NCBI GenBank assembly: GCA_000434335.1
Contig: FR878232.1
Location: 5,066-69,065 of the forward strand
DNA: 64,000 nt
Reading direction: 5' to 3'
From: Clostridium sp. CAG:492
GTDB taxonomy: Bacteria; Bacillota; Clostridia; TANB77; CAG-508
Positions 10,944 through 34,542 of this stretch are shown piece after piece. Position 1 is the stretch's first letter, and the number at the start of each line of letters is the position of its first letter. The notes under the pieces are model-generated. The model did no database searches and had not been told where the DNA came from. It was given only the letters and a program-made list of their open reading frames with translations. The translations under genes were made by a program, and so were the position numbers.

Positions 10944-10986
10944 AAGATATAAACAAAATTTGTGTAGAGTAGGAGGAAGTAGTAAT

Positions 10987-11391: not shown

Positions 11392-11406
11392 ACAGGGAGG
11401 TAGAAT

Positions 11407-11907: not shown

Positions 11908-11984
11908 TAAATTATGTTATTATTATTATTTTCTAAAAGGAAATAAGTTTAATAAATTATTAATTAATATGAGGAGGTTATTTT

Positions 11985-12633: not shown

Positions 12634-13074
12634 ATGGGTATGTATGAAATTCCAAGAAATACAAAAGGTGAAGGAAGAATTTTATATATTTTTTCTACTA
12701 AGGCACTAATATATACAGTAGGAGGAATATTAATAGGAGTTGTATTTAAATGGTTAATTGGTTTAATTGGAAAAGCAGTACCTTCAGCAGCATCAGTTGT
12801 AAATGTAATTGGAATTGCTTTAATCGTAATATTTGCCTTAGTAGGTTTTGCTCTTGGAACATTTAAAGTACCACAAATAGATAAATTTGAGATAACAAGA
12901 AAAGCAGGCGGAATAAGTTTAGATACAGTAGTAAAAGAATATATAAAATTTCACATAAACAAGAATAGATATTATACATATGATACAAGTGATTTAATAA
13001 AAGAAGAAATAGAAAGAAAAGAAAAAGAAGACAAAAAGGCAGAAGAAGAGAAACTTAGAAAGGAGAAAAAATAA
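12634..13074 (+). CDS. VirB3-like small T4SS membrane protein (PrgI/Orf17-like)
   Basis: 146 aa, two TM helices, directly upstream of VirB4. Translationally coupled (TAATG) to the next gene. Confidence 0.45.
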   Translation: MGMYEIPRNTKGEGRILYIFSTKALIYTVGGILIGVVFKWLIGLIGKAVPSAASVVNVIGIALIVIFALVGFALGTFKVPQIDKFEITRKAGGISLDTVVKEYIKFHINKNRYYTYDTSDLIKEEIERKEKEDKKAEEEKLRKEKK

Positions 13075-14390: not shown

Positions 14391-16302
14391 TGAAGAAGCA
14401 AGAAAAAGAATAATAAGAAGAAAAACAATAAAAGAAATGATAGCACCAACAGGTATTGATGCCTCAAGCCTAGATCACTTAGAAATAATTTCAAATATAA
14501 ATAGATATGCACGAAGCTTTTTCGTGGCCAATTTACCACGTATGTGTACATTCCCAGAGCTATTTAGAAGTATGTATATGTTTGGTGATATAAACACATC
14601 TGTTTATATAAGTCCAATTTTGGAATCAAAATCGCAAAACGATTTAAACAGAGTAATAAATGAGCTAGAAACAGAGAGAATTTTAGCTGAAGATAGAGGA
14701 AATATAAACAGAGCAAGATTACTTGCACAAAAAAGAATGGAAACAGAAGATTTAAGAGACGAGATAGCAGCAGGATTTAATAAAATGTTTGAAGCAACAA
14801 TTGTTTCTACATTATTTGCGTATGATTTAAAAACTTTAGATACATATACAAGATTACTTTCTACAGAAATGGCCAAAAGTTTAGTTGATTTAAAGTCAAC
14901 TTGGGCAAACCAAGAGCAAGGTTTTCAAACTAATTTGCCATTAATGAGAAAGAAAATAGATGAAAAACATTTATTTGATAGAGGATCAATGGGAACCGTA
15001 TTTCCATTTGTAACAAGTGAAATAGGTCACCCAACTGGAATACCTCTAGGATATAATGCACAAACAGGAACTCCAATTTTATTCGATAATTTTCATGAGT
15101 CATTAACAAATTACAATATGGTTATTTTTGCAAAATCTGGTGCTGGTAAATCTGTAACAATGAAAACTTTAGTTTCTAGATCAGCAGTACTTATGGGAAT
15201 TGAAAGTTTAGCCTTAGATGCAGAAGGCGAGTATTCTGTAGTTGCTGAAAGTTTAGGCGGAATAAATGTTGTTATAAGCCCAAATTCGGATACTATAATT
15301 AATTTATTTGACTTAGAAACAGAAACTGTAAAAGATGAAATATTAGGTACAGAGCGAACTGTTTTAAATATTGAAAGTAAAATTGAAGATGTTACCCAAG
15401 CACTAGTTACTATGGCAAAAGGTAGTACAAAAAGTACAGAAGTAAATGAACTTACAAAACAAATAATTGCAGAGTCTGTAGCTGATGAATATGCAAGACT
15501 TGGAATAACAAATGATCCATCAAGTTTATATGAAAGTGAAGCTTCAAAAGTAGTAAATGGAGAAATAGTTAGACCAAAAAAGAAAATGCCAACTATAGGT
15601 TCGTGGTACAGACAAATACAAGAAAAAGCTGCTAATAATACAAACTCAGATTATCAGTTTCATTACAGTTATTTAATAAAGGTAATGAAACAATATGTAA
15701 GAGAGTATGATGGTCAAATGGCATATTTTGATGGACAGTCAACATTTGAATTACTAGAAGGAGCACCATTTATTAACCTAGATATTTCTGCACTAGAAGA
15801 AAGATTTGCAAGACCATTAGCACAACAAATTTTATTATCTTGGATTTGGGAGAAATTTGTAAAAAAGAATAGTGAAGATAGAAAGAAGGCAAGAAAAAAA
15901 CGTGTTTTAGTTGATGAGGCTTGGATGTTACTTCCGTATCCAGAAGCTGTAGACTTTTTAAATACAATGGCAAGACGTGCAAGAAAAAGAAATGTATCTT
16001 TAGCTGTTATATCACAGAGATTTCAGGACTTTTACGAAAAACAAGAAGTACAGGCTGTTCTTACATCATCAGAAACGAAGTTGTTTTTAGCACAAGATAA
16101 GTCTGAAATAGAGTATTTGAAAGAAGTGTTTAAGTTAAGCGAAGGTGAAGCCAACTTTTTAATAACTTGCCAAATAGGACAAGGGTTATTGAAAGTCGGT
16201 CAAGATACAGCAATAATTACAATTAGACCAACAGCAAAAGAATTTCAATTTATGGAAACTAACTTAAACAAAGTAATTGCCCAAAAATATGGAGCTTATT
16301 GA
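14335..16302 (+). CDS. VirB4-family T4SS ATPase
   Basis: Walker A FAKSGAGKSVT; Walker B RVLVDEAWML; N-terminal IAPTGIDASSLDHLEI...RSFFVANLP region typical of Gram-positive VirB4. Confidence 0.75.
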   Translation: MALFKKKIAQEVNQANKIDEEARKRIIRRKTIKEMIAPTGIDASSLDHLEIISNINRYARSFFVANLPRMCTFPELFRSMYMFGDINTSVYISPILESKSQNDLNRVINELETERILAEDRGNINRARLLAQKRMETEDLRDEIAAGFNKMFEATIVSTLFAYDLKTLDTYTRLLSTEMAKSLVDLKSTWANQEQGFQTNLPLMRKKIDEKHLFDRGSMGTVFPFVTSEIGHPTGIPLGYNAQTGTPILFDNFHESLTNYNMVIFAKSGAGKSVTMKTLVSRSAVLMGIESLALDAEGEYSVVAESLGGINVVISPNSDTIINLFDLETETVKDEILGTERTVLNIESKIEDVTQALVTMAKGSTKSTEVNELTKQIIAESVADEYARLGITNDPSSLYESEASKVVNGEIVRPKKKMPTIGSWYRQIQEKAANNTNSDYQFHYSYLIKVMKQYVREYDGQMAYFDGQSTFELLEGAPFINLDISALEERFARPLAQQILLSWIWEKFVKKNSEDRKKARKKRVLVDEAWMLLPYPEAVDFLNTMARRARKRNVSLAVISQRFQDFYEKQEVQAVLTSSETKLFLAQDKSEIEYLKEVFKLSEGEANFLITCQIGQGLLKVGQDTAIITIRPTAKEFQFMETNLNKVIAQKYGAY

Positions 16303-16384
16303 TGTTTAGAATACGTAATATATTGACAAATGCTGGCGAACAATGTAAAATTAAAGTAATGATTATTTTAGATCGGAGAGAATA

Positions 16385-19300
16385 ATGAAAAATAGTAAAT
16401 TAGTTAACAAATTTAAAAAAATATTAATAACTGTTTTATGTATTATTACAGTTTTTTTCTCTATGCCAGTAAAAGCTAAAGCTGATGCAGGAGTATTAGA
16501 AAGCGTAGCATCATTTTTATTATTAGTACCTGATGGAATACAATTATTATTAAATACATTTGTTAGTGATGAAACTGAGGATGTTAAATTTCTTATTAGA
16601 TTACAGGTAATAGATAAGAACGCTAATTTATTTACTAATGATACGGGAAGTTTATATAATATAGAAGTAACTCCGTATGATATTTTTACAGCAGGAACGC
16701 CAACATTATACGGTGAATTGATAGAGAAACGAGACGAAATAAATTATAGTGTTCAAAACGGAGAAATGACGACCGCAGATGCGGTAGCAACTATAAAGGA
16801 AAATGTTGAATCTACTGAACCGGAAGCATTTATGACGAAAAGTTTAGTTAAAATGCCTTTATTAGATGCAAATTTTTTTAAAAAAACAACGAATAGCTCG
16901 TCAAGTTCTGATGAACAGGTGAATTCTGCAGATGTTCTAAGACCGGTAGTTGCAAATGTATATAAAAACTTAAGAAATTTTGTATTAATAATAATGCTTG
17001 CAATATTACTTTACACTGGGATAAGAATAATAGTATCTTCAGCTGTTTCTGAACAGGTTAAATATAAACAATATTTGGTTAATTGGGTTGTTGGAATATG
17101 CCTAATATTTTTAATGCAATATATAATGAGTGCAATTATGAATGTAACAACGATAGTAAATAAAATGTTAATTACTAATACAGATGGAGAGAGTTATAGA
17201 ATTGGATTTGGAACAAAAGATTCCAAAGCAGCTTCTGTTTTTAGAACAATTGCAAAACCTTATAATATGAGTGAAAAAGAGCAAGCACAACGAGATGCAT
17301 ATGAGAAAAGTCTCGAATCGCCACCGACATCTGTTAAACTTAGTGATGATTTCCAGTATAACAATCCCAATCTTGCTACCCAGTATTTATCGGCTTGGTT
17401 GAATAAAAAAGCCGATGATGAAAACAAGAATAATGGTGATGGATGGACAGAATTAGCTAACAGTGATGACGAAAAGATATCGAATTTTGTAAATAGAAAA
17501 ATAGAAATTGCGGATAATGGGGCAATATTCATATTTGATAAAGACAATAAAACAGTTTATGATTATACTGCAGATATCTCGCAAACACCTATTAAGATTA
17601 ACGCTGGAATATACGATGAAAGTGTGAATGGATTTAGAGCTATATATAAGTGTAATATTGCTGAATTTTGCAGGACAATAACAACTTTCTCATCAAAATA
17701 TACACATTTATATAACAATAAAAAGACAATGATTATGACAGATTCAAGTGAAGAAAAGGAAAATGATTATGCTGTAGGAGCTTTTTGGGGATATGCATTT
17801 TTATATATATTGATTACTATAGAAACAGTTGTATTTTTATATAAATATTTAAAAAGAGTAATTTGGTTGGCGTTTTTGACAATGATAGCACCATTAATTG
17901 CAGTTATGTATTCAGTTGACAAAATTGGAGATGGAAAAGCGCAAACTTTTAATATGTGGTTCAAAGAATATTTATTTAATTCATTAATACAACCATTACA
18001 TTTATTGTTATATACTATATTTTTAGGTGCTTCAATGGAATTAATGGCAAGCAATGTAATTTATGCAATAGTTGCATATGCGTTTATGATACCAGCCGAA
18101 AAATTCTTTAAGAAAATGTTCGGATTTGATAAAGCATCAACACCAGGAGGTCTTGGAAGTCCAGCAGCAGGAATGATGGCAATGAGAGGATTAGATAAAT
18201 TAGGTGGATTTGGCCCTCACGGAAAAGGTGCTAAAGGCGGAAAAGATGCAGGCAAAACTAAAATACCATTAGCAAAAGGTAAACTTGGAGGTGGTGGACT
18301 TGCTCCAGCTGGTCCTACTGGAGCAGCTGGAGCAGCCGGAGCAACACCACTTACAGCAGCAAGAACAGGAGCAGGAGGAGCAACAGCCGGAGCAGCAGCT
18401 GGAAGTGCAGCCACTGGAAGTGCTTCTGCAGCCGCAGGTGCAGGAACAGCTGGAGGGTCAAGAAGATTAAGATCTGCAGGAGGAATTTCCTCTGGCACAG
18501 CCGGAAAAGCAAGACGAAGAGGTTCTAGTAGTGTTTTAGGCGGAATGGGTAGAGCATTAGGAAATAGAACAGCAATGAGAATAACTGGAGGTAAAAGTGC
18601 TACCTTAGGTCAAGCCTTTACAACAAGAGCTGGCTTAGCAGGTATGGCAAAAAATGGATTTAATTTTGCAGCAAGACAAATAGGCAGAACTGCTGGCGGT
18701 ATAGGAGGCTCATTAATTGGACTAGGAGTTGGAGCAGTAAGTGGAGCATTAGGAACAGCATTAACTGGAGAAGATAAATTTTCAGATGCTGTTCAAAAGG
18801 GATTATTAGCCGGAAGTGCAGCTGGAGCTAATAGAGGAACTCAATTTACAGATTGGTCAACTGGTGGAGTTGAAGATTTGTATGGTGAAGGTAGAAGATA
18901 TGCAGCAATTGATCCTGAGGATGAAAAACAACTTGAAAGAGCTGCTAGATTAAAAGCAGAAGATTGGAGCCAAGAACATATGTCTGAGGTAAGTACATTA
19001 TCAGCAGATGAATATAAAGAGAAAATGGACTTCGCAGAAGAGGCATTTAAATATACTGATGATATTGAAGATTTAGATCAATTAGAGAGAATGCAAGGAT
19101 ATTCTACTGATGCAAGTGGAAAAATAGATGAAGATAAATTCGCAGAAGCTATAGATTATGAGAAGATAACAAAGAGATTTGGTGATTTCAATGTGGATGC
19201 TAAGAAGAAAGACAATTACACTACATATAGAGCTCGCGAAATTGCTGATGGATTTAAAAATGGTACAATACAATTTAATCAAACAGAAATGACCAAAATA

Positions 19301-19405
19301 AATGGTGCAACAACAGAAGCAGATAAAGAAAAATTCATAAAAGAAATTGCAAAAGAATATGCAACAAATGAAGCAGATATAATAGCAAGATATCAAAATG
19401 GATAA
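16385..19405 (+). CDS. VirB6/TrbL-like polytopic T4SS channel protein with a Gly/Ala-rich low-complexity insert
   Basis: Signal peptide; at least 5 TM helices in the middle (TcpH/Orf15-like). A ~130-aa G/A-rich GC-rich segment follows, then an acidic C-terminal domain. Confidence 0.5.
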   Translation: MKNSKLVNKFKKILITVLCIITVFFSMPVKAKADAGVLESVASFLLLVPDGIQLLLNTFVSDETEDVKFLIRLQVIDKNANLFTNDTGSLYNIEVTPYDIFTAGTPTLYGELIEKRDEINYSVQNGEMTTADAVATIKENVESTEPEAFMTKSLVKMPLLDANFFKKTTNSSSSSDEQVNSADVLRPVVANVYKNLRNFVLIIMLAILLYTGIRIIVSSAVSEQVKYKQYLVNWVVGICLIFLMQYIMSAIMNVTTIVNKMLITNTDGESYRIGFGTKDSKAASVFRTIAKPYNMSEKEQAQRDAYEKSLESPPTSVKLSDDFQYNNPNLATQYLSAWLNKKADDENKNNGDGWTELANSDDEKISNFVNRKIEIADNGAIFIFDKDNKTVYDYTADISQTPIKINAGIYDESVNGFRAIYKCNIAEFCRTITTFSSKYTHLYNNKKTMIMTDSSEEKENDYAVGAFWGYAFLYILITIETVVFLYKYLKRVIWLAFLTMIAPLIAVMYSVDKIGDGKAQTFNMWFKEYLFNSLIQPLHLLLYTIFLGASMELMASNVIYAIVAYAFMIPAEKFFKKMFGFDKASTPGGLGSPAAGMMAMRGLDKLGGFGPHGKGAKGGKDAGKTKIPLAKGKLGGGGLAPAGPTGAAGAAGATPLTAARTGAGGATAGAAAGSAATGSASAAAGAGTAGGSRRLRSAGGISSGTAGKARRRGSSSVLGGMGRALGNRTAMRITGGKSATLGQAFTTRAGLAGMAKNGFNFAARQIGRTAGGIGGSLIGLGVGAVSGALGTALTGEDKFSDAVQKGLLAGSAAGANRGTQFTDWSTGGVEDLYGEGRRYAAIDPEDEKQLERAARLKAEDWSQEHMSEVSTLSADEYKEKMDFAEEAFKYTDDIEDLDQLERMQGYSTDASGKIDEDKFAEAIDYEKITKRFGDFNVDAKKKDNYTTYRAREIADGFKNGTIQFNQTEMTKINGATTEADKEKFIKEIAKEYATNEADIIARYQNG

Positions 19406-19415
19406 GAGGTAAAAT

Positions 19416-20426
19416 ATGTTTAAATTTTTAGATTATTTTAAAGATAATAGAAAAAAAGTAATAATAGTAATAGCGTGTGTATTGTTAATAATATACGCAA
19501 TAAAAACGTATTTTGACTATAATGAAAAAAATGAGTACAATGAAAGCAATAGCAGTAGTAGTAATAATACTACTGCTATTGTTAAAAATAATGATATTAC
19601 TAATACGAATGATAATAATATAAATCAAACAGAAAATATAGTAAAAATAGGATCTGAAAATGAGGCAGTAGAAAAGTTTGTAAACTATTGTAATAATTAT
19701 AATATAGAAACAGCATACAATATGCTAACAGATGAATGTAAAAAGTTATTATATACAAATAAAGAGGATTTTGAAAACAAATATGTAAAAAGTTTGTTTG
19801 ATAAAAAAAGAACATATCAAATTGAAAAAGTATTACAATCAAGTTCTACAGATAATGTATATAAACTTATTTTGTCTGAAGATCCAATAAACAAAGGAAA
19901 AGTAGATGAAAGTAATAATAAAATTGATTACATAACTATAGTTAATACAAATGGAACATATAAACTAAATATTTCTGGTTTTATAAAATCAGAAAGCATA
20001 AATTCAAGTAATCAAAATACTTATATGCAAATTAGTGTGTCAAGCAAATTAATATTTGTAGATTATGAAATTTATAACATTACTGCAAAAAATAATATAT
20101 TAGTAGATGCAGTTCTTGACAATATGGAAAACAATATAAAAACATATATTGAGGATGAAGATGGTAATAAATTTAGAATTATAAATGATGAATATACAGC
20201 TGAAACAACGAGAGTTCAAAATGGTAAGGAAGCAAGTTTTAGTTTAAAATTTGATAGGAAATATTCAAGTAATAATAAAGAAATTAAAAAAATAGTTTTT
20301 TCAAGAATTAATATAATAAACAGAAATTATTATCAAAAGATATTTGATCCAGAAAACAAAACAACAAGTTATAAAGAGCAAATGTCTACATATCCTAAAT
20401 ATTTGAGCTTGGAGGTAGAGCTATAG
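19416..20426 (+). CDS. membrane-anchored T4SS protein, possibly TcpC/Orf13 (VirB8-like) family
   Basis: N-terminal TM, 336 aa. Size, topology and position match TcpC-like proteins; no strong motif. Confidence 0.3.
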   Translation: MFKFLDYFKDNRKKVIIVIACVLLIIYAIKTYFDYNEKNEYNESNSSSSNNTTAIVKNNDITNTNDNNINQTENIVKIGSENEAVEKFVNYCNNYNIETAYNMLTDECKKLLYTNKEDFENKYVKSLFDKKRTYQIEKVLQSSSTDNVYKLILSEDPINKGKVDESNNKIDYITIVNTNGTYKLNISGFIKSESINSSNQNTYMQISVSSKLIFVDYEIYNITAKNNILVDAVLDNMENNIKTYIEDEDGNKFRIINDEYTAETTRVQNGKEASFSLKFDRKYSSNNKEIKKIVFSRINIINRNYYQKIFDPENKTTSYKEQMSTYPKYLSLEVEL

Positions 20427-20457
20427 AATAAAAATGACCAGGAAAGGAGGTAAGGCT

Positions 20458-23400
20458 ATGAATGATAATAATGAAGAAGATGACGATGATGTAGTAGTAA
20501 ATGATGAAGCAGTTGATACTACTGATGGAGAAGCAGATAATAACGATGAAGGTTTGCAAAGTCAAAGTGATGTACAAGATGATATGCAAAATATTGCAAA
20601 CTCGATTAATTTAAAAAAAAGAAAAAATAAAGATAAAGCATCTGGAAAAAGATTATTAGCAGCAGGAAAAGCCTTATATCATACTGGTGATGTTTTAGTA
20701 AAAGTTGGAGAAGATACACAAAGAGTAGGTAATGAGATTAAGAACCTAGGAGAAAAGCTAAAAGAAAAAGGAAAGAAAGAAGTCAAAGATGCAACAGAAG
20801 ATTTTAAAACAGGTTTAAAACTTTGTAAAACAGGAGTAGGTGCACTTGTAGGAGTTCCATTATGTTTAAGAAGTATACTAAAAATGATTAAGGGTGGAGC
20901 TACTATACTTGGTGGTAGTATACTTAAGGTAATTGGTAGTTTAATAAACTTTATGGGAAAAGCACTAGCTGCCGTAGGAAAAGCAATGAGAGCCATTGGA
21001 CAAAAGATGATGGAAATTGCCAATAAGAAAATAGCAGAAGCTGGTGGAAATATTTCTAATTTGTCTATGCCAGGAGGAAAAAATGATAAAGATGATGTTG
21101 AAGTTAATTCTATTCCCGGCGTTGGCGGATTATCAGAAACAAAATTAAGTAAAACAAAAAAAATAATAATTATGATAGCAATAGGTGCGGCGATCGTTAT
21201 AGCTTTTGTTTGGATTCTTATGCAAGATTGGGAATCGACAAAGGAAAATGGTAGTGAAGTTACAGGAGATTTAAAAAATGTTCCATATACTGTATCATCT
21301 AAAATAATGGACAATTTGGTTATTGCCACAGATGAATCTGGAGCATATACATATGGGTTTAAAAATGATGATGGTGAAATTGTTGATATAGATCAGGCAA
21401 TTGATTCAGCAATAAAATCATTAGAGGAAAATAAAAGCAAATCATTGTATTATTTGGGTAAGAATACTGATAATAGAAAAGCACTACTAAAAAAAATGAT
21501 TTTAGCGGAAATTGCAACACAATATCCAGATTTAAGTGATTCTGTTGATTTAGGTTTAAGTGGTACAAGTACTTCTGGAACATCAAGTAGTGTAAATAGT
21601 TCAAATGATACAAATAGTAATTCATCTAGTAGTTCAACAAATGTTGATGAAATTATTAAAAATATGACAATTGAAGAAAAAATATATCAAATGATAATGA
21701 TGCAAGCAATAGTAAGTGATGGTTCAAATTATGCGGATACTTCAGTTGGAGGAGTTATTGTTGCAACTAATTCTAATTATGATGCAAATTTAGCAAATAT
21801 TGGATCAAAATATAAAATAACACCTTTTGTTGCTACTGATGATGAAGGTGGAAATGTAGAAAGAGCAGCAACTGGATATAAAACAGCAAGAGAATATGGC
21901 GATTCTGAAGATTATGATGAATTATATAATTCAGAAGTAAAAAAATGCAAAGAATTATTGTCAAAAGGAATTAATTTGAATTTAGGTCCTGTTTCTGATG
22001 TTATTAGTAGTGGCGCATTATATGACCGTAGCTATGGTAGTGATTCTGCTAAGGTTGAAAAATGTATAGAAACAATACTTAAAGCAAGAGCATCAGTTAA
22101 TGTTAGTGGAAATAGTGTAGGATCTACATTAAAACATTATCCGGGTTATCCTGATAATAATACTAATACAGATACAGGAATTGCAAAGGATAATAGATCT
22201 ATTGACAAAATAAATGATAATATAAATGTATTTAAACAAGGAGTAAATAATGGAGCTAATGCTATAATGGTTTCAAATGTAATTTATACAAACTTAGATG
22301 CTAATAATCCAGCTTCATTATCACCAACAATTATTTCAGGATTAAGATCTTCTTTTTCTGGAGTTATAATGACAGATGACATTGGTTCAGCAGCTGGTGT
22401 AAGTAGTATTTCAGATAGATATAAAAAAGCTATCTTAGCTGGAAATGATATGATATTAGTGTGGGATTCTAATTTAAATGACGCATATTCACAAATAAAG
22501 GCAGCAGTTGATAGTGGCGAAATTACTGAAGAGCGTATTAATGAATCTGTTACAAGAATTTTAAATTGGAAGTTGAACGGAGGTACTTTAAGTGGAAATA
22601 ATAGTAGCTCTTCGAATAAAAACTCAGTAAAAGCAACAGCTGGAACTGGAGATGCAAAGACAAGTGAAAAATTTAACAGCTCTTCAAAAATTAATGGTGG
22701 AATTAAAGTGCAAAGAAAACTTGAAAGTGGTAGTGTAATTAATTTAAAATACACATCTACAGAAAATTTTAATGCTTTGATGGCTTCTAATAGTGATGAT
22801 ATAATAAATTATTATACATTACAAAAAAAGGCATCAAGTTCAAGTTCAAAATCTATCGAAGGTGATTTTAGTGGATCTAATAATGCAGAGATAATTTGGA
22901 ATTTTTTAACTAGTAAAGGATTGTCAGAAACGTGTACTGCTGCAATATTAGGAAATTTATATAAAGAAAGTGGACTTAACCCAGGAGTGGAAGAAAACAC
23001 ACCTGCATTAGATAAGGGATACGGTTTGGCACAATGGACATTTGAAAGACGAACACAAATAGAAACATATGCACAGGCTATGAATAAACCTGTAAGTGAT
23101 ATTGAATTACAGTTACAATTTTTATGGTTAGAAATTGATTCAGATGCAGACCATACATATGCAAACCTTCAATGGGGAGGAAGAGATGGATGGCAAGATA
23201 CTAATGGTTTATATCAACGATTTATTAATATGACAGATATAGATGAGGCAACAGCATTTTTCTGCTGGAATCATGAAAGACCAAATGAAGAATATGCTCA
23301 TTTAGAGGGCGAAGATGGAAGAAAAGCTTGGGCTAAAAAGTTTTATGATTTGTATGCAGGTAAAAAATCATCTTCAAGTTCGTCAACTACAAGTAGTAGT

Positions 23401-25521
23401 AAGAAGAATGAGGATTCATCGGATAACGAAAAATCTAATGAAAATAGTAGTGCAACAGAGCAATCTTTTGATAATTACTTATTTATTGGAGACTCAAGAT
23501 ATGAGGGAATATCTAGTGAATTATCAGCATTAGGAAGTAATGTAACAGTATGTGCTGCGACATCTTCTGCTCCAAGTGAATGGATAGATATTGCTAAAAA
23601 TGGATCTGGAACTGTTAAGGGAAAAAGCCAAACATTACCAAGTACTGTAAAAAATGTTTCAATAATGCTTGGTGTAAACAATTTATCTGAAACAGCAGAA
23701 ATGGAATATTTAATGAATGCGTTACACGAAAAATATAGTAGTGCTACAATATATGCAAATAGTGTATTTCACGTTGGATCAGCATATTCTGGAGCAGCTT
23801 CAAATGAAGCAATAGATAAATACAATGACGAAATAAGAAATTTCTGCAATCAAAATAGCTCTTGGGCAAAATATATTGATGTTACAAATGGATTAAATGA
23901 TGAATCTGGATACTTAAAATCTGAATATGCTACATCTGATGGATTACATATTGGATCAACAGAGGGAAAAACAACATTAGTAAACAATATTGAAACAGCA
24001 ATAACTGGTGCATCTTCAACAGGAAGCACAACTACGAGCGATGTTGCTGCATCTTCATTACCAGGATATACAATTGTTGTTGCAAATAGAACTAGTACAA
24101 TAACAAATGTTGTTGAAAGTTACCAATATACAGGAACAAGTTATACAGATATTGGACATAGCAGTTATATTGATAATGGAAAAAGATGGTCAAATCCAAG
24201 TAGTGGTCCAAAAAGTAATAGAACAACAGCAGTATATTCACCAACAGCTGTTGCATACCAAGAGGCTTTGAAAAATTATACATTATACTTTAATTTTTTG
24301 TGGGCAGTTTTAGTTGATACAGAAAATATAAATCTTGTAGGAGAATGGGCAGATTTAGTTTGCGATAATGTTGGAAAAAATTCAAAAGTAGTTGTAACAG
24401 TATACTCAGATGTAGAAACTACAACAACTCAAACAGAGAATTCGAGAGTACAAAGTTTTATATCAAATGAAAATGGAATTGTTATTGATGACACATATAA
24501 TGTAACAGAAATAATATATTCAACTATATCAAAAATGAAATCAAAATTAGCTGTTACATATGCAGATACATGGTTGATGAAATATGAAAATAATGCAGAA
24601 ACGTATGATGAATATACATCAAAATCGAAAGAAAGTATAACTGAAAAAGTGGACATTGATGATGAAAATGAAACTAAATCTACAGATACTAATGATGATA
24701 AAGAAAAAAATGCAATTGAAATTTTAAAAGAAAATGATGTATCACTTAGAACAATGAAAAAAGAGAAAAAAATAATAAAAGAAATGTTAAGCTCTAGTGA
24801 AAAAGTAAGTTTTATGGTTGATATATTGGACTATATTTTGGATAAAGCAAGTGGAAATGATACAGAAGAAAATGCATTATCGAAATTATTAGATGTAAGT
24901 TCATTTAATTTGAATACATTTACTCCAACAAGTGGAACTTCGTCAAATGGAGAAGCACTTGCAGGTGGTTCAATAGAAAGTGTAAATGGAGGAGGATATC
25001 GAACTAAATTTACAACTGGAGGTAGAACATTTGTTGAATATAAACAAGGTTGGGGGAATACTGCACCTTGGGGGAATGTATATGTAAATGGCTGGAGTAG
25101 TGGAAGCAATATGGGAAATTCTGGATGTGCATTAACATCAATTGCAGTTATCGCAACTGGATATGGCGTTAATATTTCACCTCAAGATGTTGCTGATCTT
25201 GTAAATAGTGGCGAATATAATTGGGGAGATCTTTTAGGTATAACTAAACATTACATTGGAAAATCTTGTGAGTGGCAAACAACTGGAGATATTCAACATG
25301 CAATAATAAATCAATTAAAAGCTGGTAAGCCTTGTATGGTGCATACTACTGTTAATTATCCAGATGGACATTTTCTTACAGTTTTGGCATACAACGAGGA
25401 GACACAAGAAGTTTATGTTTCTAATGTTGGTGGATGGTATGATGATGATCCAACAAGAAATGGTTGGCAACCAGTAGAAAAATTGAGTGAATATGATGAA
25501 TGTATGTTAATTGGTGATTAG
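20458..25521 (+). CDS. multidomain cell-wall hydrolase (GH3 NagZ-like, lysozyme-like muramidase, SGNH esterase, C39/CHAP-like Cys peptidase) with an N-terminal TM
   Basis: KHYPGYPD and GVIMTDDIGS / AGNDMIL (GH3). AAILGNLYKESGLNP...GYGLAQWT (phage-tail-lysozyme-like). FIGDSRYEG ... GVNN ... DGLHIG (SGNH). GNSGCALTSIAV ... DGHFLTVLAYN ... VYVSNVGG (papain-like). The ATG at 20458 follows the RBS AGGAAAGGAGG. Confidence 0.6.
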   Translation: MNDNNEEDDDDVVVNDEAVDTTDGEADNNDEGLQSQSDVQDDMQNIANSINLKKRKNKDKASGKRLLAAGKALYHTGDVLVKVGEDTQRVGNEIKNLGEKLKEKGKKEVKDATEDFKTGLKLCKTGVGALVGVPLCLRSILKMIKGGATILGGSILKVIGSLINFMGKALAAVGKAMRAIGQKMMEIANKKIAEAGGNISNLSMPGGKNDKDDVEVNSIPGVGGLSETKLSKTKKIIIMIAIGAAIVIAFVWILMQDWESTKENGSEVTGDLKNVPYTVSSKIMDNLVIATDESGAYTYGFKNDDGEIVDIDQAIDSAIKSLEENKSKSLYYLGKNTDNRKALLKKMILAEIATQYPDLSDSVDLGLSGTSTSGTSSSVNSSNDTNSNSSSSSTNVDEIIKNMTIEEKIYQMIMMQAIVSDGSNYADTSVGGVIVATNSNYDANLANIGSKYKITPFVATDDEGGNVERAATGYKTAREYGDSEDYDELYNSEVKKCKELLSKGINLNLGPVSDVISSGALYDRSYGSDSAKVEKCIETILKARASVNVSGNSVGSTLKHYPGYPDNNTNTDTGIAKDNRSIDKINDNINVFKQGVNNGANAIMVSNVIYTNLDANNPASLSPTIISGLRSSFSGVIMTDDIGSAAGVSSISDRYKKAILAGNDMILVWDSNLNDAYSQIKAAVDSGEITEERINESVTRILNWKLNGGTLSGNNSSSSNKNSVKATAGTGDAKTSEKFNSSSKINGGIKVQRKLESGSVINLKYTSTENFNALMASNSDDIINYYTLQKKASSSSSKSIEGDFSGSNNAEIIWNFLTSKGLSETCTAAILGNLYKESGLNPGVEENTPALDKGYGLAQWTFERRTQIETYAQAMNKPVSDIELQLQFLWLEIDSDADHTYANLQWGGRDGWQDTNGLYQRFINMTDIDEATAFFCWNHERPNEEYAHLEGEDGRKAWAKKFYDLYAGKKSSSSSSTTSSSKKNEDSSDNEKSNENSSATEQSFDNYLFIGDSRYEGISSELSALGSNVTVCAATSSAPSEWIDIAKNGSGTVKGKSQTLPSTVKNVSIMLGVNNLSETAEMEYLMNALHEKYSSATIYANSVFHVGSAYSGAASNEAIDKYNDEIRNFCNQNSSWAKYIDVTNGLNDESGYLKSEYATSDGLHIGSTEGKTTLVNNIETAITGASSTGSTTTSDVAASSLPGYTIVVANRTSTITNVVESYQYTGTSYTDIGHSSYIDNGKRWSNPSSGPKSNRTTAVYSPTAVAYQEALKNYTLYFNFLWAVLVDTENINLVGEWADLVCDNVGKNSKVVVTVYSDVETTTTQTENSRVQSFISNENGIVIDDTYNVTEIIYSTISKMKSKLAVTYADTWLMKYENNAETYDEYTSKSKESITEKVDIDDENETKSTDTNDDKEKNAIEILKENDVSLRTMKKEKKIIKEMLSSSEKVSFMVDILDYILDKASGNDTEENALSKLLDVSSFNLNTFTPTSGTSSNGEALAGGSIESVNGGGYRTKFTTGGRTFVEYKQGWGNTAPWGNVYVNGWSSGSNMGNSGCALTSIAVIATGYGVNISPQDVADLVNSGEYNWGDLLGITKHYIGKSCEWQTTGDIQHAIINQLKAGKPCMVHTTVNYPDGHFLTVLAYNEETQEVYVSNVGGWYDDDPTRNGWQPVEKLSEYDECMLIGD

Positions 25522-25534
25522 GGAGGTGCTTTAT

Positions 25535-26872
25535 GTGGAAGAAGATAAAAAGAAAATAATTGTTAGAGTTATAATTTGGATAATAATACTATTAATCATT
25601 TTGGCATTATTATTACTAAAGTTTAATAAAAAAAATAATAATACAAATACAATACAAAATAACAATGGGCAAAATTTTAATAGTACAAATAGTGGAAATA
25701 ATACAGCGGCACCTCGACTAGATACTGGTGATACTAATATAGATGAATTAAAAAGTAGTAAAATTTTAATTAAACTTCAGGATTGTATAAATCAATATTA
25801 TGATTACATTGATTCTAAAAATGCAACAGCTTTAATTAATGTATTAGATGCAGATTATATAAAGGAAAAGTCAATAAATGAAAAAAATGTTATAAATAAT
25901 GTTGATGTAATAAATGAAGAAACTAAAATTTTTATAGAAAAAGCGTATTCACAAGTGTTATCATATGATAAAGAATATAAGTGCTATGTTTACGGTGAGG
26001 CATATAATAATAATTTAAAAAAAATTTCTAATTATATGTATATAGTGTATTTAAATACATTTGATAAAGCTTTTTATATAATACCTTGTGGTACAATGAG
26101 TGAAAGTGAATTTTCTATAAAAATAAATCAAGTTAATAATAATACAACAAAAACTAGTACAGAATCTACAAGGGTTAAGTTAAATAATTATAATAAATTT
26201 GAATTTTCTTCTGATAGTGAATTAATTAAAAATATAATTTTAAATGATTTTAAATATTATAACTTTTTGCAGGTTAATGATAAAAATAGACAATATATGT
26301 TATTAGATGAAAATTATAGAAGTAAACGATTTGGAGGAATAGAAAATTTTAATTCGAATTTTCAATACCTAAATATGAATTTACAATATGTTAAAAGAAG
26401 TTATTATAATGACAGAACAATATATATAGGAATTGATAATAATGGAAAATATTATATTGTTTCTGAAAAAACACCAACTAACTTTAGTATAATGTTAGAC
26501 TCATATACAATACCCCTATCAGAAACAACAAAAAAATACACATCATCGTCTGAGCAACAAAAAGCTTGTATGTGCTTAGAGCAAGTGAAAGAAATGATTA
26601 ATAATAAAGATTATAAAAGTGTTTATAATCATCTAAATAATACATTCAAAAACAATAATTTTGAAACACAAGATAAATTAGTATCATATATAAAGGGAAA
26701 ATTTTATGACTTGAATAATTTTGAGTATGAATCATATCAGGTTTCAAATAATAGCTATATAATTACTGTAAAGATAATAGATGCTACTGATGAAACTAAA
26801 AGTTTTACAATGAGTTTTGTAGTAAAATTAGCAGATAGCATAGAAAAATTTGAAATGTCATTTGGAATTTAA
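25535..26872 (+). CDS. membrane-anchored hypothetical protein (in the T4SS operon)
   Basis: GTG at 25535 follows the RBS AGGGAGGTG. N-terminal TM; Asn-rich. Confidence 0.4.
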   Translation: MEEDKKKIIVRVIIWIIILLIILALLLLKFNKKNNNTNTIQNNNGQNFNSTNSGNNTAAPRLDTGDTNIDELKSSKILIKLQDCINQYYDYIDSKNATALINVLDADYIKEKSINEKNVINNVDVINEETKIFIEKAYSQVLSYDKEYKCYVYGEAYNNNLKKISNYMYIVYLNTFDKAFYIIPCGTMSESEFSIKINQVNNNTTKTSTESTRVKLNNYNKFEFSSDSELIKNIILNDFKYYNFLQVNDKNRQYMLLDENYRSKRFGGIENFNSNFQYLNMNLQYVKRSYYNDRTIYIGIDNNGKYYIVSEKTPTNFSIMLDSYTIPLSETTKKYTSSSEQQKACMCLEQVKEMINNKDYKSVYNHLNNTFKNNNFETQDKLVSYIKGKFYDLNNFEYESYQVSNNSYIITVKIIDATDETKSFTMSFVVKLADSIEKFEMSFGI

Positions 26873-26889
26873 TATGTTATTAAAGGAAA

Positions 26890-26935
26890 AAGTTTGAAAG
26901 CAGTACAATTTATACGGTTTTTCAAACTTTATTTC
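26890..26935 (+). terminator. rho-independent terminator
   Basis: AAAGTTTGAAA...TTTCAAACTTT 11-bp stem followed by a T-rich run. Confidence 0.5.
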
Positions 26936-26960
26936 TTAAAAGAAAGGAAAGTGAATATAA

Positions 26961-28460
26961 ATGAGTGATATGAAAGAGCTTACAAGAACGATACAAAGTG
27001 ATGTATTAAAGTTAATGCAAGAGCAGGATAATGAAAACGAAAGATTTTTATATGCAATTCCATATAATGAGTTTTATTTAACACAACCATCAAATGAAAA
27101 CGAAGTAGCACTAAAGCTTAATGAAATAGTCCTAATTGTAAAGGAAATGATAGTTAATAAGTTTGGTGAAACAAAACGAAAATTTGAATTATATAATAAT
27201 GAGTTACAAAAAATTGGGACAGCAGTTGAAGGAGAAAACTTTATTGCTGATAAAGAAATTTTATGTAGTATTATTGAAATGCAGCAAAGAGCGTTAAACA
27301 ATCTAGGAGGTAATTATAGAATTGCTGGCATAGATTCAATAGATACTGAAGGGAAAATTGAGTCATATTTTGAAATGATAAACAGAAAACTAGTTGTTTT
27401 GAATGAAAGGCAAAAAGAAAAATATGATATGTTAAAACGTAATTATGAAAGAAGTATATCTGGTGTAAGTTATAATAAAAAAGTAGATAAAAACGAAAAA
27501 TTTAACAAAGGAATTAGCGAGCAGATAGAAAATGGAAACATAAATAATGGAGAAAATGCAGAAGCAATGAAAGAAATTGCCGAACAAGATTTAGGTTTTG
27601 AAATTTCAAAAATAACTCCAATTGAGGATGACTTATTTTATGATAATAATCCGCAAATAGATAGATATAGAGCATTTCTTGTAGTTGATAGAGAAATGAA
27701 ACCTCAAATTGTTGCTATGAAAAATGGAAAATTAGAAAAAGCAGACGGTTTTGATGAAGCAACCAAAAGAACAGGTGAAGCAGCTATAATGAGAAATGAT
27801 GGTAAAAATTTAGAGCAAAATCATACATATGGTGAAATAAGAAGAAATAACGATGGAGCTGATAGCTTGGTTTACTCAATAGAAATAGGAACATATGGAG
27901 AACCAAAATTATTAGAGAAGAGACCTAATGGAGGTAGTAAATTTCAGCAACAAAATGAATATTTAGTAAGAGAGGTACAAACAAGTAATACAAATTATGA
28001 AGATATCAACAGAGAAGGTGATACTAGAGAAAATATAACTCGACAAATTTTTTCTGAAAGACCAGGTTATAATGATGATAGTCATCCAGACAATATAAGT
28101 GAACAAAATAAGAAGATTGTAAGTGATATGGCCGATAATAAAGAAAGTGATTTTACTCCTGAATCATTAGCAGAAGATAAAAATATTAAAGCAAATGAAG
28201 CAATGAAAAAGATAAAAGAAGAGCTAAAAAAACAAGGAATAGACTACAATTCATCTGATGATGAGAAAATAAGGAATGATGTTATGAGTTCTATAGAAAA
28301 TAATGGAAAGATTTTTTGTGAAGAAGAAGTACAACAATATTGCAAAAATTTTAAACAATATAAAATAGAACAAGAACAGGAAAATAAAAATTCAAAAGAT
28401 GATGAAGATGAGGGAAGAAACAGATTAGAAGAAATATTAAAAAAGTTTAAGGGATACTAA
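26961..28460 (+). CDS. hypothetical acidic protein (499 aa)
   Basis: Long ORF with an RBS. No recognisable domain. Confidence 0.4.
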   Translation: MSDMKELTRTIQSDVLKLMQEQDNENERFLYAIPYNEFYLTQPSNENEVALKLNEIVLIVKEMIVNKFGETKRKFELYNNELQKIGTAVEGENFIADKEILCSIIEMQQRALNNLGGNYRIAGIDSIDTEGKIESYFEMINRKLVVLNERQKEKYDMLKRNYERSISGVSYNKKVDKNEKFNKGISEQIENGNINNGENAEAMKEIAEQDLGFEISKITPIEDDLFYDNNPQIDRYRAFLVVDREMKPQIVAMKNGKLEKADGFDEATKRTGEAAIMRNDGKNLEQNHTYGEIRRNNDGADSLVYSIEIGTYGEPKLLEKRPNGGSKFQQQNEYLVREVQTSNTNYEDINREGDTRENITRQIFSERPGYNDDSHPDNISEQNKKIVSDMADNKESDFTPESLAEDKNIKANEAMKKIKEELKKQGIDYNSSDDEKIRNDVMSSIENNGKIFCEEEVQQYCKNFKQYKIEQEQENKNSKDDEDEGRNRLEEILKKFKGY

Positions 28461-34528: not shown

Positions 34529-34542
34529 GGAGGCTTGCTGCT

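What the first reader, a model, noticed from the sequence alone, without database searches (positions are those of the whole stretch)
20458..25521. 1688-aa four-enzyme peptidoglycan-remodelling protein encoded inside the T4SS operon
A single ORF combines, in order: an acidic N-terminus plus TM; a GH3/NagZ-like N-acetylglucosaminidase region (KHYPGYPD, GVIMTDDIGS, AGNDMIL); a phage-tail-lysozyme-like muramidase (AAILGNLYKESGLNP...GYGLAQWT); an SGNH/GDSL esterase with all three blocks (GDS, GVNN, DGLH), possibly a peptidoglycan O-deacetylase or esterase; and a C-terminal C39/CHAP-like Cys peptidase (GNSGCALTSIAV...DGHFLTVL). Conjugation-associated hydrolases (Orf14/TcpG-like) normally have one or two catalytic domains. 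This combination could cut glycan strands and peptide stems and also strip O-acetyl groups that block lysozymes.
Basis: partly seen in the sequence, partly recalled or inferred. Interest (0 to 1): 0.65.

Follow-up and report, generated by a model that had tools for sequence, protein, structure and literature searches.

The report
Giant multi-enzyme wall cutter of T4SS
One 1,687-residue membrane-anchored protein in a chromosomal type IV secretion gene cluster of an uncultured gut Clostridia bacterium carries four different cell-wall-degrading enzyme domains on a conserved scaffold of unknown fold, which is more domains than any studied secretion-system wall hydrolase has.

Summary
The ORF 20458-25521 (+) is intact, has a strong ribosome-binding site, and is identical to an NCBI protein of Clostridium sp. 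CAG:492 named only "beta-N-acetylhexosaminidase".

All four domains pass Pfam's curated cut-offs:
- GH3 (E 1.7e-39)
- phi29-gp13-type lysozyme (E 4.7e-32)
- SGNH/GDSL esterase (E 1.1e-8)
- C39_2 papain-like Cys peptidase (E ~1e-8)

Catalytic Glu, Ser/Asn/His and Cys/His are conserved. The GH3 domain keeps its nucleophile Asp but has N-[ST]-D where NagZ enzymes have the Asp-His dyad.

- Three conserved non-catalytic segments with no solved structural match form a scaffold, and the enzyme domains sit in slots between them.
- The GH3 slot holds GH73 in many relatives and is empty in others.
- One relative carries six Pfam catalytic families.
- The T4SS lies between housekeeping genes, is syntenic across species, and has VirB2-like pilins.
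- No relaxase lies within the gene cluster.
- VirB4 is 84-89% identical between genomes in which the hydrolase is only 32-44% identical.

Best reading: a VirB1-like wall-breaching subunit, and a new, highly modular variant of that kind. Whether it cuts the producer's wall or a partner's is open. No enzyme activity was tested.

The parts
20458..25521 (+). Whole gene: 1,687-aa membrane-anchored multi-domain hydrolase (stop codon included)
20458..20607 (+). Acidic N-terminal tail (aa 1-50: 18 D/E, 0 K/R), predicted cytoplasmic
20644..21000 (+). Cytoplasmic Lys-rich region with Gly at every 7th residue (aa 63, 70, 77 ... 181). The Gly positions are nearly invariant in the family. Function unknown.
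21163..21219 (+). Single strong transmembrane helix (Kyte-Doolittle mean 3.09 over 19 aa), the membrane anchor
21226..21543 (+). Scaffold segment 1 (ends ...AEIATQYPDL). Invariant residues across the family, no Pfam hit.
21667..22566 (+). GH3 N-terminal (NagZ-type) domain. Nucleophile Asp in GVIMTD (D640) is kept. N570-T571-D572 stands where NagZ has D-[ST]-H.
22681..22833 (+). Scaffold segment 2 (GGIKVQRK...LKYTS...NYYTL). It follows segment 1 directly in relatives that lack GH3/GH73.
22879..23355 (+). Phage_lysozyme2 (phi29 gp13 N-domain type) glycosidase. Glu837 in YKESG is invariant in 20/20 family members and aligns with the Glu of gp13 SES.
23482..23952 (+). SGNH/GDSL esterase: GDS (S1013), GVNN (N1074), DGLH (D1161, H1164)
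24046..24933 (+). Scaffold segment 3, the 'mid domain' (YTLYFNFLW motif). The AF2 model shows very long beta-hairpins plus a helical part. No Pfam hit and no PDB match. Only 52 cluster representatives in 1.84 billion proteins.
25114..25422 (+). Peptidase_C39_2 papain-like Cys peptidase (C1557, H1638)
10960..12356 (+). Three small proteins with VirB2 topology (signal/TM plus two TM helices). The third hits T4SS_pilin (46 bits) and TrbC/VirB2 (39.4 bits).
12634..14390 (+). PrgI/VirB3-like protein (146 aa) and a conserved 438-aa single-TM protein
14335..16302 (+). VirB4 ATPase, 84-89% identical in the syntenic loci
16385..20426 (+). 1,006-aa protein with six hydrophobic segments (VirB6-like role inferred) and a 336-aa single-TM protein. 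Both are syntenic and evolve fast.
25511..28460 (+). 453-aa single-TM protein and 499-aa protein. These are the conserved last two genes of the module and have no Pfam family.
4224..5810 (+). VirD4-type coupling protein (528 aa, no N-terminal TM helices), 5 kb upstream of the pilin genes

Best explanation
The protein is the VirB1-equivalent (cell-wall-breaching) subunit of a Gram-positive-type type IV secretion system that is fixed in the chromosome of an uncultured, low-GC gut Clostridia lineage (NCBI name Clostridium sp. CAG:492; by name the GTDB genus CAG-492 of order TANB77). Predicted topology puts the N-terminus inside the cell: an acidic tail, a Gly-heptad cytoplasmic region and one TM anchor. 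Outside the membrane, a conserved three-part scaffold carries enzyme modules joined by Ser/Thr/Asn-rich linkers. Inferred division of labour, none of it tested: the SGNH esterase removes O-acetyl (or similar ester) groups that block lysozyme-type enzymes. The gp13-type lysozyme cuts the glycan backbone. The GH3 domain removes or cuts at GlcNAc, a job done by GH73 in the same slot in relatives. The C-terminal papain-like Cys peptidase cuts peptide stems or cross-links. Together they would open a local channel through a thick wall next to the VirB4/VirB6-like machinery. Shown here: domain identities, catalytic-residue conservation, gene context, synteny, modular turnover. Inferred: substrates, order of action, topology, and whether the wall cut is the producer's own or a partner's.
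For: Domain HMMs pass curated cut-offs. Catalytic Glu, GDS Ser, block III Asn, block V His, and Cys/His are conserved across 18-20 of 20 family members. Solved relatives: NagZ-type GH3, phi29 gp13 lysozyme domain with the Glu aligned, and SGNH hits to 2hsj (E 1.7e-12). SGNH also hits sialate O-acetylesterases 7pzg and 6njc (E ~1e-7), while the O-acetyltransferase PatB scores only E 0.5. The papain-like fold Alr0975 has its Cys and His aligned with ours (E 2e-4). There is one strong TM helix after a 235-aa N-terminal region. The gene always lies between the same T4SS genes (VirB4, ~1000 aa, ~330 aa, hydrolase, ~450 aa, ~490 aa) in loci L001-L009 and L012. Other T4SS clusters carry related module sets. 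An ICE-like locus has VirB4, a GDSL+M23+lysozyme2 hydrolase, VirD4 and an integrase. The C. botulinum plasmid p12/29 has a C39_2+3D hydrolase two genes after VirB4. [quoted passage not shown] O-acetylation of MurNAc C-6 sterically blocks lysozymes (abstract of PMC6174289).
Against: No activity data exist for any domain. The GH3 domain has N-[ST]-D where 'all known NagZ enzymes' have the Asp-His dyad (PMC6572805). It may therefore have different chemistry or be a binding module. In PrgK only the middle domain is the active wall-degrading one and the other two look regulatory (PMC12857230), so having a domain does not mean it acts. None of the SLT, CHAP or LytM domains that define the described VirB1 classes is present. 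The SGNH substrate is unknown. The very fast divergence and module turnover of this protein, next to a nearly frozen VirB4, is not what acting only on the producer's own conserved wall would predict.
Confidence: 0.7

Rival explanations
1. The protein is mainly an outward-facing weapon or entry tool. The chromosomal, pilin-bearing T4SS would serve a host-dependent (epibiotic or parasitic) or predatory lifestyle, as proposed for Patescibacteria. The hydrolase would then breach the wall of another bacterium (host, prey or recipient) rather than, or in addition to, the producer's own wall.
For: The T4SS sits between housekeeping genes (YqeY upstream; two M16 peptidases, Lgt and tRNA-Leu downstream) at the same position in at least five divergent MAGs. 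No relaxase or integrase lies inside the module. The nearby relaxase belongs to a separate element beyond the tRNA-Leu gene. VirB2-like pilins are present, a feature the review says is otherwise seen among Gram-positive systems only in Patescibacteria (PMC12857230). In Saccharibacteria, lysozyme and peptidase genes just downstream of virB4 are essential for epibiotic growth (PMC12102498). TANB77 is uncultured and has reduced genomes (PMC11680825). VirB4 is 84-89% identical while the hydrolase is 32-44% identical and swaps its enzyme modules. That pattern fits adaptation to varied foreign walls.
Against: A VirD4 coupling protein is present, and a mobilisable element with a relaxase lies 7 kb away and could use this T4SS for ordinary DNA transfer. 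The protein is membrane-anchored in the producer, like self-acting PrgK and TraG. Other surface-exposed T4SS proteins of the cluster diverge just as fast, so fast divergence is not specific to the hydrolase. Nothing here shows cell-cell association or host dependence. The relation of this VirB4 to the Patescibacteria clade was not tested. Weak T4SS_pilin hits also occur in a C. botulinum plasmid cluster.
Confidence: 0.2
2. It is not a true four-enzyme protein. One or more domains, GH3 first of all, would be catalytically dead or regulatory carbohydrate-binding modules, as reported for the LytM and CHAP domains of PrgK.
For: The NagZ Asp-His dyad is replaced by N-[ST]-D in every GH3-bearing family member. 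Three members also have TDG instead of TDD after the nucleophile. The GH3 slot is dispensable: it is empty in P0018 and P0019 and holds GH73 in others. Block V Asp or His of the SGNH domain is lost in a few members. The PrgK precedent comes from PMC12857230.
Against: The GH3 nucleophile Asp and the KH[YF]PG and DDEGG motifs are conserved. The same N-T-D variant is kept in five stand-alone membrane-anchored GH3 proteins 53% identical to this domain, and in the solved protein 5bu9. That suggests a functional subclass in which Asp could be the acid/base. GH3 and GH73 in one slot points to a shared glucosaminidase role. The other three domains keep full catalytic sets.
Confidence: 0.3
3. It is a housekeeping autolysin or peptidoglycan-recycling enzyme, as the database name 'beta-N-acetylhexosaminidase' implies, and merely lies next to T4SS genes.
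For: The NCBI name. NCBIfam gives a partial hit to the NagZ equivalog, 97.8 bits against a cut-off of 207. The locus is chromosomal.
Against: The NagZ equivalog cut-off is missed by a wide margin and covers under 20% of the protein. The gene keeps its exact position inside the T4SS module in every locus examined. Its scaffold domain is found in only 52 cluster representatives out of 1.84 billion. The two distant relatives whose loci were looked at lie next to cluster genes: the P0045 locus (L012) has VirB4, o1006-like, o336-like and o453-like genes, and the P0050 locus (L014) has an o453-like gene. Recycling NagZ enzymes are small single-domain proteins.
Confidence: 0.04

Closest known systems
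PrgK of Enterococcus faecalis pCF10 (VirB1 class DELTA)
   Same: Membrane-anchored, with a long intracellular N-terminal part, several extracellular wall-hydrolase domains including a muramidase and a Cys peptidase, and encoded inside a Gram-positive T4SS operon (PMC12857230).
   Different: PrgK has three domains (LytM, muramidase, CHAP), none of which Pfam finds here. The window protein has GH3, a gp13-type lysozyme, SGNH and C39_2, plus a three-part scaffold of unknown fold. It is about twice as long as the plasmid-borne relatives seen here.
TraG of pIP501 (class ALPHA) and Orf14 of Tn916 (class BETA); from my own knowledge also CwlT of ICEBs1 and TcpG of pCW3
   Same: T4SS-encoded wall hydrolases that pair a glycan-cutting domain with a Cys peptidase (PMC12857230; CwlT and TcpG are recalled, not tested).
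   Different: They have two catalytic domains at most. They are not known to carry an esterase, GH3 or the scaffold segments. They sit on mobile elements with their own relaxase.
Bacteriophage phi29 gp13 tail enzyme (PDB 3csr/3csq)
   Same: The lysozyme domain is the same Pfam family (PF18013), gives a direct sequence match (E 1.3e-7) and has the catalytic Glu aligned. gp13 also couples it to a peptidase to drill through a Gram-positive wall (the drilling role is from my own knowledge).
   Different: gp13 is a soluble 365-aa tail protein whose partner domain is a LytM peptidase. It has no membrane anchor, esterase or GH3.
ICE-like loci L010/L011 (IMG/VR contigs) and C. botulinum plasmid p12/29
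   Same: In L010/L011 a T4SS hydrolase between VirB4 and VirD4 carries GDSL + M23 + Phage_lysozyme2. Its SGNH domain is 56% identical to the window's. In p12/29 a C39_2 + 3D hydrolase lies two genes after a VirB4 that is 39.5% identical.
   Different: Both have fewer domains and a different order. No GH3 was found in either, and no scaffold-segment similarity was detected. The L010/L011 VirB4 is only 24% identical. Both lie on mobile elements.
Patescibacteria (Saccharibacteria) chromosomal T4SS with lysozyme and peptidase genes downstream of virB4
   Same: A chromosomal monoderm T4SS with VirB2-like pilin genes, no relaxase in the cluster, and wall-hydrolase genes next to virB4 (PMC12102498; PMC12857230).
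   Different: There the enzymes are separate genes in a different phylum. Homology of the VirB4 clade or of the hydrolases to the window's was not tested.
NagZ / LpqI / B. subtilis YbbD (GH3 beta-N-acetylglucosaminidases)
   Same: Same GH3 N-terminal fold family, with conserved KH[FY]PG, DDEGG and nucleophile [ST]D motifs.
   Different: The Asp-His dyad is replaced by N-[ST]-D. The domain is an insert in a giant T4SS protein rather than a stand-alone recycling enzyme.

Membership tests
VirB1-like T4SS peptidoglycan hydrolases of Gram-positive systems | Encoded within a T4SS gene cluster next to VirB4, VirB6-like and VirB8-like genes | tested here: met
   Same strand, 31 nt after the preceding cluster gene. 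The order VirB4, 1006 aa, 336 aa, hydrolase, 453 aa, 499 aa is conserved in L001-L009 and L012.
VirB1-like T4SS peptidoglycan hydrolases of Gram-positive systems | Membrane anchor with extracellular enzymatic domain(s) | tested here: met
   One strong TM helix at aa 236-254, with all enzyme domains C-terminal to it. Topology is predicted, not shown.
VirB1-like T4SS peptidoglycan hydrolases of Gram-positive systems | Belongs to a described class (ALPHA, BETA or DELTA) built from SLT, CHAP, LytM or PrgK-type muramidase domains | tested here: not met
   No SLT, CHAP or LytM/M23 Pfam hit at E <= 1. The domain set is GH3 + PF18013 + GDSL_2 + C39_2.
VirB1-like T4SS peptidoglycan hydrolases of Gram-positive systems | Degrades peptidoglycan and is needed for T4SS function | not testable with these tools
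   Needs zymography or muropeptide analysis, plus genetics in an uncultured organism or a surrogate.
GH3 NagZ-type beta-N-acetylglucosaminidase | GH3 N-terminal domain with nucleophile Asp in the [ST]D motif | tested here: met
   PF00933 136.6 bits. GVIMTD aligns with GVVVTD and GLVYTD of 5bu9 and 4yyf and is conserved in 11/11 GH3-bearing members.
GH3 NagZ-type beta-N-acetylglucosaminidase | Asp-His catalytic dyad (D-[ST]-H after KHFPG), said to be used by all known NagZ enzymes (PMC6572805) | tested here: not met
   The loop reads N-T-D and contains no His in the window protein; most of the other GH3-bearing members also have none there. D-S-H of 4yyf aligns to N-T-D. Of the 120 nearest GH3 clusters, 115 have a [ST]-H in that loop (113 of them D-[ST]-H) and 5 have N-T-D. 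The NCBIfam NagZ equivalog scores 97.8 bits against a cut-off of 207.
Phage_lysozyme2 (phi29 gp13 N-terminal lysozyme) | Family HMM match and catalytic Glu | tested here: met
   PF18013 111.5 bits. 3csr E 1.3e-7, with E837 aligned to the Glu of gp13 'SES'. The Glu is invariant in 20/20. That it is gp13's catalytic Glu45 is from my own knowledge.
SGNH/GDSL hydrolase | Blocks I (GDS), III (GxN) and V (DxxH) | tested here: met
   GDS is invariant in 19/19. The block III Asn is kept in all 19 SGNH-bearing members. Block V His is present in 17 of 19, and Asp is variable. PF13472 scores 36.3 bits against a cut-off of 32.9 on the isolated stretch.
O-acetylpeptidoglycan esterase (Ape-type) function | Specific de-O-acetylation of MurNAc in peptidoglycan | tested here: inconclusive
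   The nearest solved relatives are a PAF-acetylhydrolase-like protein (2hsj) and sialate O-acetylesterases (7pzg, 6njc). PatB scores only E 0.5 and no Ape1 hit appears. This fits a sugar O-acetyl esterase, but the substrate is not determined.
Peptidase_C39_2 / papain-like (clan CA) Cys peptidase | Family HMM match with conserved Cys and His | tested here: met
   PF13529 scores 36.4 bits against a cut-off of 24. Cys and His are conserved in 18/20 and align with the Cys and His of Alr0975.
Patescibacteria-type chromosomal T4SS | Chromosomal location, no relaxase in the cluster, VirB2-like pilin array, wall hydrolases next to virB4 | tested here: met
   The features are as listed in PMC12102498.
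Patescibacteria-type chromosomal T4SS | VirB4 belongs to the monophyletic Patescibacteria clade | not tested
The best plasmid VirB4 is 40.8% identical, from Clostridium.

The most novel reading that the evidence does not exclude
The cluster is a Firmicutes counterpart of the essential Patescibacteria T4SS. It would be a vertically inherited, pilin-bearing, relaxase-less secretion organelle of a reduced-genome uncultured gut lineage (TANB77). Its giant hydrolase would be a scaffolded, swappable toolkit for drilling into other bacteria's walls. The three conserved scaffold segments, with their roughly 25-30-residue beta-hairpins, would oligomerise into the wall-spanning conduit that Gram-positive T4SSs are thought to need but that has never been identified.
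Probability: 0.15. Interest if true: 0.85.

Novelty: new variant of a known kind. Interest (0 to 1): 0.6.

Why it matters
How Gram-positive type IV secretion systems cross a 30-100 nm wall is an open question, and the few studied hydrolases have one to three domains. This family shows a different design: a conserved scaffold with slots that take up, swap or lose enzyme modules. It includes an esterase and a GH3 not described before in T4SS hydrolases. The papers retrieved in my searches describe nothing comparable, and none of 72,556 plasmids encodes more than one domain's worth of it. The family gives testable candidates for de-O-acetylation-assisted wall breaching and for a GH3 subclass without the Asp-His dyad. 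The surrounding T4SS is also of interest. It is chromosomal and very widespread in gut metagenomes, with about 7,000 VirB4 clusters. It belongs to an uncultured order that has drawn medical interest (PMC11680825). A working model of its surface machinery could help explain why these bacteria resist cultivation.

Tried and rejected
- **Fusion artefact:** rejected. The identical protein is present in several sources, and 40%-identical orthologues have the same architecture.
- **ATG at 20434 as the start:** rejected in favour of 20458, which has a Shine-Dalgarno sequence and matches the NCBI protein length.
- **Phage origin of the lysozyme+SGNH pair:** the two IMG/VR 'viral' contigs that matched are ICE-like, with VirB4, VirD4 and an integrase.
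- **Fold of scaffold segment 3:** the AF2 model (pLDDT 69.9) found nothing significant in the PDB. The best matches were secretins at E 0.01 and TM about 0.2, which I treat as noise from long beta-hairpins.
- **Fold of scaffold segments 1+2:** the model (pLDDT 80, pTM 0.71) found nothing either, best E 0.28.
- **SGNH as an O-acetyltransferase (OatA/PatB-like):** not supported, since PatB scores E 0.5 against esterases at 1e-7 to 1e-12. It is not excluded.
- **C-terminal domain against the PDB with a single sequence:** only spurious nanobody hits. A family profile was needed.
- **Relaxase as part of the T4SS:** rejected. It lies beyond tRNA-Leu with RepA_N, TnpV, NikA and an integrase, and is absent at that place in L008 and L009. 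Attachment repeats for that element were not found.
- **Pairwise BLAST of the window protein against the p12/29 hydrolase:** not significant, E 0.69, although both contain C39_2.
Full report
**1. The observation**

The + strand carries one uninterrupted reading frame ending at 25521. Two in-frame ATGs are possible. The one at 20458 follows AAAGGAGGT by 8 nt and gives 1,687 residues. That is the length of the identical protein P0001, which NCBI names "beta-N-acetylhexosaminidase [Clostridium sp. CAG:492]". Residue numbers below start at 20458.

**2. The four catalytic domains**

A Pfam scan of the whole protein gives three hits above the curated cut-offs:
- Glyco_hydro_3: E 1.7e-39, 136.6 bits.
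- Phage_lysozyme2: E 4.7e-32, 111.5 bits.
- Peptidase_C39_2: E 2.1e-6, 28.8 bits against a cut-off of 24.

Scanned on its own, the stretch between the lysozyme and the C-terminal part hits Lipase_GDSL_2 (E 1.1e-8, 36.3 bits against 32.9). The C-terminal stretch alone hits C39_2 at 36.4 bits.

Solved relatives agree with these calls:
- NagZ-type GH3 structures, best 5bu9 at E 2.2e-22.
- The lysozyme domain of the phi29 tail protein gp13, 3csr at E 1.3e-7, with our Glu837 opposite the Glu of gp13's SES motif.
- For a family profile of the SGNH domain: 2hsj (E 1.7e-12) and two sialate O-acetylesterases (E ~1e-7). The peptidoglycan O-acetyltransferase PatB scores only E 0.5.
- For a profile of the C-terminal domain: the papain-like Alr0975 (E 2e-4), with catalytic Cys and His aligned.

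In an alignment of 20 family members:
- The lysozyme Glu is invariant.
- GDS is invariant in the 19 members that have the SGNH domain.
- The block III Asn is kept in all 19 of those members.
- Cys and His of the peptidase are present in 18 of 20.

**3. A caveat on the GH3 domain**

The nucleophile motif GVIMTD and the KHYPG and DDEGG motifs are conserved. The loop that carries the Asp-His dyad in NagZ enzymes (KHFPGxG-x4-D-[ST]-H) reads KHYPGYPDNNTNTD here. D-S-H of 4yyf aligns with N-T-D, and the best solved match, 5bu9, also reads N-T-D.

A paper on LpqI states that all known NagZ enzymes use the Asp-His dyad (PMC6572805). Among the 120 nearest GH3 clusters, 115 have a [ST]-H in that loop, and 113 of those read D-[ST]-H. 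Only five have N-T-D. Those five are stand-alone 363-366-aa proteins, 51-54% identical to our domain; the two whose N-termini I checked begin with a hydrophobic anchor.

I therefore do not file the domain as NagZ. It is a GH3 of a rare subclass in which an Asp may replace His as acid/base. That last point is inference.

**4.

The most conserved columns of the family lie outside the enzymes, in three segments that hit no Pfam family:
- aa 257-362, ending AEIATQYPDL.
- aa 742-792, GGIKVQRK...LKYTS...NYYTL.
- aa 1197-1492, YTLYFNFLW...ADTWL.KYEN.

In relatives P0018 and P0019, segment 1 is followed directly by segment 2. In the window protein GH3 sits between them. In many relatives a GH73 glucosaminidase sits there instead. 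One example is P0021, with GH73 at 336-439 between the segment-1 and segment-2 motifs. In a more distant set of relatives the three segments are contiguous at the N-terminus and the enzymes follow them.

An AF2 model of segments 1+2 of P0018 is fairly confident (pLDDT 80, pTM 0.71). A model of segment 3 is moderate (pLDDT 69.9) and shows four very long strands plus a helical part. Neither model has a significant match in the PDB. Domain borders coincide with Ser/Thr/Asn-rich linkers.

**5. The family is rare and highly modular**

A search of 1.84 billion cluster representatives with segment 3 found only 52 proteins. Pfam counts in the 24 closer relatives were:
- C39_2: 19
- lysozyme2: 17
- GDSL: 17
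- Hydrolase_2: 14
- GH73: 11
- NlpC/P60: 9
- GH3: 2

The 22 distant relatives also include M15, M23 and CHAP. P0016 (2,322 aa) has six Pfam catalytic families in one chain. The window protein is therefore one member of a toolkit family, not its extreme.

No plasmid in PLSDB encodes more than one domain's worth of the protein; the best coverage is 18%.

**6. Genomic context**

- Upstream: VirD4 (4224-5810), a type III restriction-modification pair, YqeY, three small proteins with VirB2 topology, PrgI/VirB3, a 438-aa protein, VirB4, a 1,006-aa protein with six hydrophobic segments, and a 336-aa single-TM protein. One of the three small proteins passes the T4SS_pilin and TrbC cut-offs.
- Downstream: 453-aa and 499-aa proteins, then two M16 peptidases, Lgt and tRNA-Leu.

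The order from the pilins to the 499-aa gene is kept in L001-L009. The M16-M16-Lgt continuation is kept in five of those loci; a sixth (L003) runs out within the second M16 gene. All are from gut "Clostridia bacterium" MAGs of humans and deer.

Identities to the window proteins:

| Protein | Identity |
|---|---|
| VirB4 | 84-89% |
| M16 peptidases | 70-80% |
| Lgt | 68-73% |
| Hydrolase | 32-44% |
| 1,006-aa protein | 30-66% (partial matches) |
| 336-aa protein | 30-41% |
| 453-aa protein | 25-42% |
| 499-aa protein | 31-40% |

In L012, VirB4 is 87% identical. The hydrolase there is a 1,036-aa GH73+lysozyme protein that shares only 27% identity in segment 3.

VirB4 of this type forms about 7,000 clusters in the protein collection. 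The top 120 are 81-94% identical to the window's, and one lies on a 1.77-Mb contig. The nearest plasmid VirB4 is 40.8% identical.

The relaxase at 34543-35841 belongs to a separate element that starts after tRNA-Leu. That element carries RepA_N, TnpV, NikA and the relaxase, followed by a YhcG nuclease and an integrase. It is missing at that position in L008 and L009.

**7. How it most likely works**

By position, membrane anchoring and domain content, this is the VirB1-equivalent of the system. [quoted passage not shown] It sorts them into classes with at most three domains, PrgK being the three-domain case (PMC12857230).

The inferred logic is as follows:
- The esterase removes O-acetyl groups, which sterically block lysozymes (PMC6174289 abstract).
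- The lysozyme cuts the glycan backbone.
- GH3, or GH73 in relatives, acts at GlcNAc.
- The Cys peptidase cuts peptides.

Related pairings recur in other T4SS hydrolases:
- GDSL + M23 + lysozyme2 in an ICE-like locus. Its SGNH domain is 56% identical to ours although its VirB4 is only 24% identical, which points to exchange of single domains.
- C39_2 + 3D in C. botulinum p12/29.

None of the enzyme activities is shown. In PrgK two of the three domains seem regulatory, so some domains here may not be catalytic either.

**8. Whose wall is cut?**

Three features parallel the T4SS of Patescibacteria: the chromosomally fixed position, the lack of a relaxase inside the module, and the VirB2-like pilins. 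That T4SS is essential for epibiotic growth, and lysozyme and peptidase genes follow its virB4 (PMC12102498; PMC12857230). CAG-492 is a genus of the uncultured, reduced-genome order TANB77 (PMC11680825). Linking the window's organism to that genus rests on the name alone.

The fast module turnover beside a nearly frozen VirB4 would fit action on foreign walls. Against this:
- A coupling protein and a nearby mobilisable element fit ordinary DNA transfer.
- The other surface proteins of the cluster diverge equally fast.
- The relation of this VirB4 to the Patescibacteria clade was not tested.

I keep this as the main rival and as the basis of the novel reading.

**9. Verdict**

- Observation: confirmed.
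- Interpretation: supported, with the GH3 caveat and a correction to the framing. The system is a chromosomal T4SS, not evidently a conjugative element, and the protein is an enzyme toolkit built on a scaffold.
- Novelty: a new variant of a known kind, the VirB1-like T4SS wall hydrolases.
- Interest: moderate to high, because the architecture, the scaffold and the surrounding T4SS are all undescribed, as far as my searches of the literature went, and can be tested directly.

Noticed in passing
window 10960-28460 (with VirD4 at 4224-5810): The T4SS itself is unusual. It lies between housekeeping genes, is syntenic across species, has three proteins with VirB2 topology, and has no relaxase inside the module. 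Its VirB4 forms about 7,000 metagenomic clusters, the top 120 of them 81-94% identical. A 2025 review says VirB2 is otherwise absent from Gram-positive T4SSs except in Patescibacteria.
   Followed up: partly
window 32805-41167: tRNA-Leu (32805-32892) is followed by RepA_N, TnpV, NikA/MobC, a MobA/VirD2-type relaxase, a YhcG nuclease and a tyrosine integrase. This looks like an integrative mobilisable element with no T4SS of its own. The ORF 32786-33106 is spurious, because it overlaps the tRNA. No att repeats were found.
   Followed up: partly
window 3776-5810: The VirD4 ORF (528 aa, TTG start at 4224) lacks the usual N-terminal TM helices. An overlapping upstream ORF in another frame (3776-4249, 157 aa) has two TM helices. 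The coupling protein is either split or frameshifted.
   Followed up: no
window 20644-21000: The cytoplasmic N-terminal region of the hydrolase has Gly at exactly every seventh residue over about 18 heptads (aa 63-181). These positions are nearly invariant in the family. I know of no matching motif.
   Followed up: no
window 21667-22566; proteins P0068-P0072; PDB 5bu9: There is a small GH3 subclass with N-T-D in place of the NagZ Asp-His dyad. It includes stand-alone 363-366-aa GH3 proteins (hydrophobic N-terminal anchor in the two checked) 51-54% identical to this domain, and one structural-genomics entry.
   Followed up: partly
L010 4234-12804 and L011 (IMG/VR contigs): Contigs filed as viral carry VirB4, a GDSL+M23+lysozyme2 hydrolase, VirD4 and an integrase, so they look like integrative conjugative elements. 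Their SGNH domain is 56% identical to the window's although VirB4 is only 24% identical, which suggests exchange of single domains between T4SS hydrolases.
   Followed up: partly
window 44169-61637: Three very large surface proteins (935, 3,400 and 1,307 aa) carry SpaA, thioester (TED) and DUF11 domains. Two of them end in xKTG plus a hydrophobic stretch and a basic tail, which resembles a variant sortase sorting signal.
   Followed up: no
window 6006-9961: A DNA methylase and a ResIII helicase-type subunit, apparently a type III restriction-modification pair, sit between VirD4 and the rest of the T4SS genes.
   Followed up: no
L015 (C. botulinum plasmid p12/29) 8985-17461: This is the nearest plasmid relative of the VirB4 (39.5% identity). 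Two proteins there give sub-threshold T4SS_pilin hits, and the hydrolase is made of C39_2 plus a 3D domain. VirB2-like proteins may therefore be more common in clostridial T4SSs than reviews state.
   Followed up: partly
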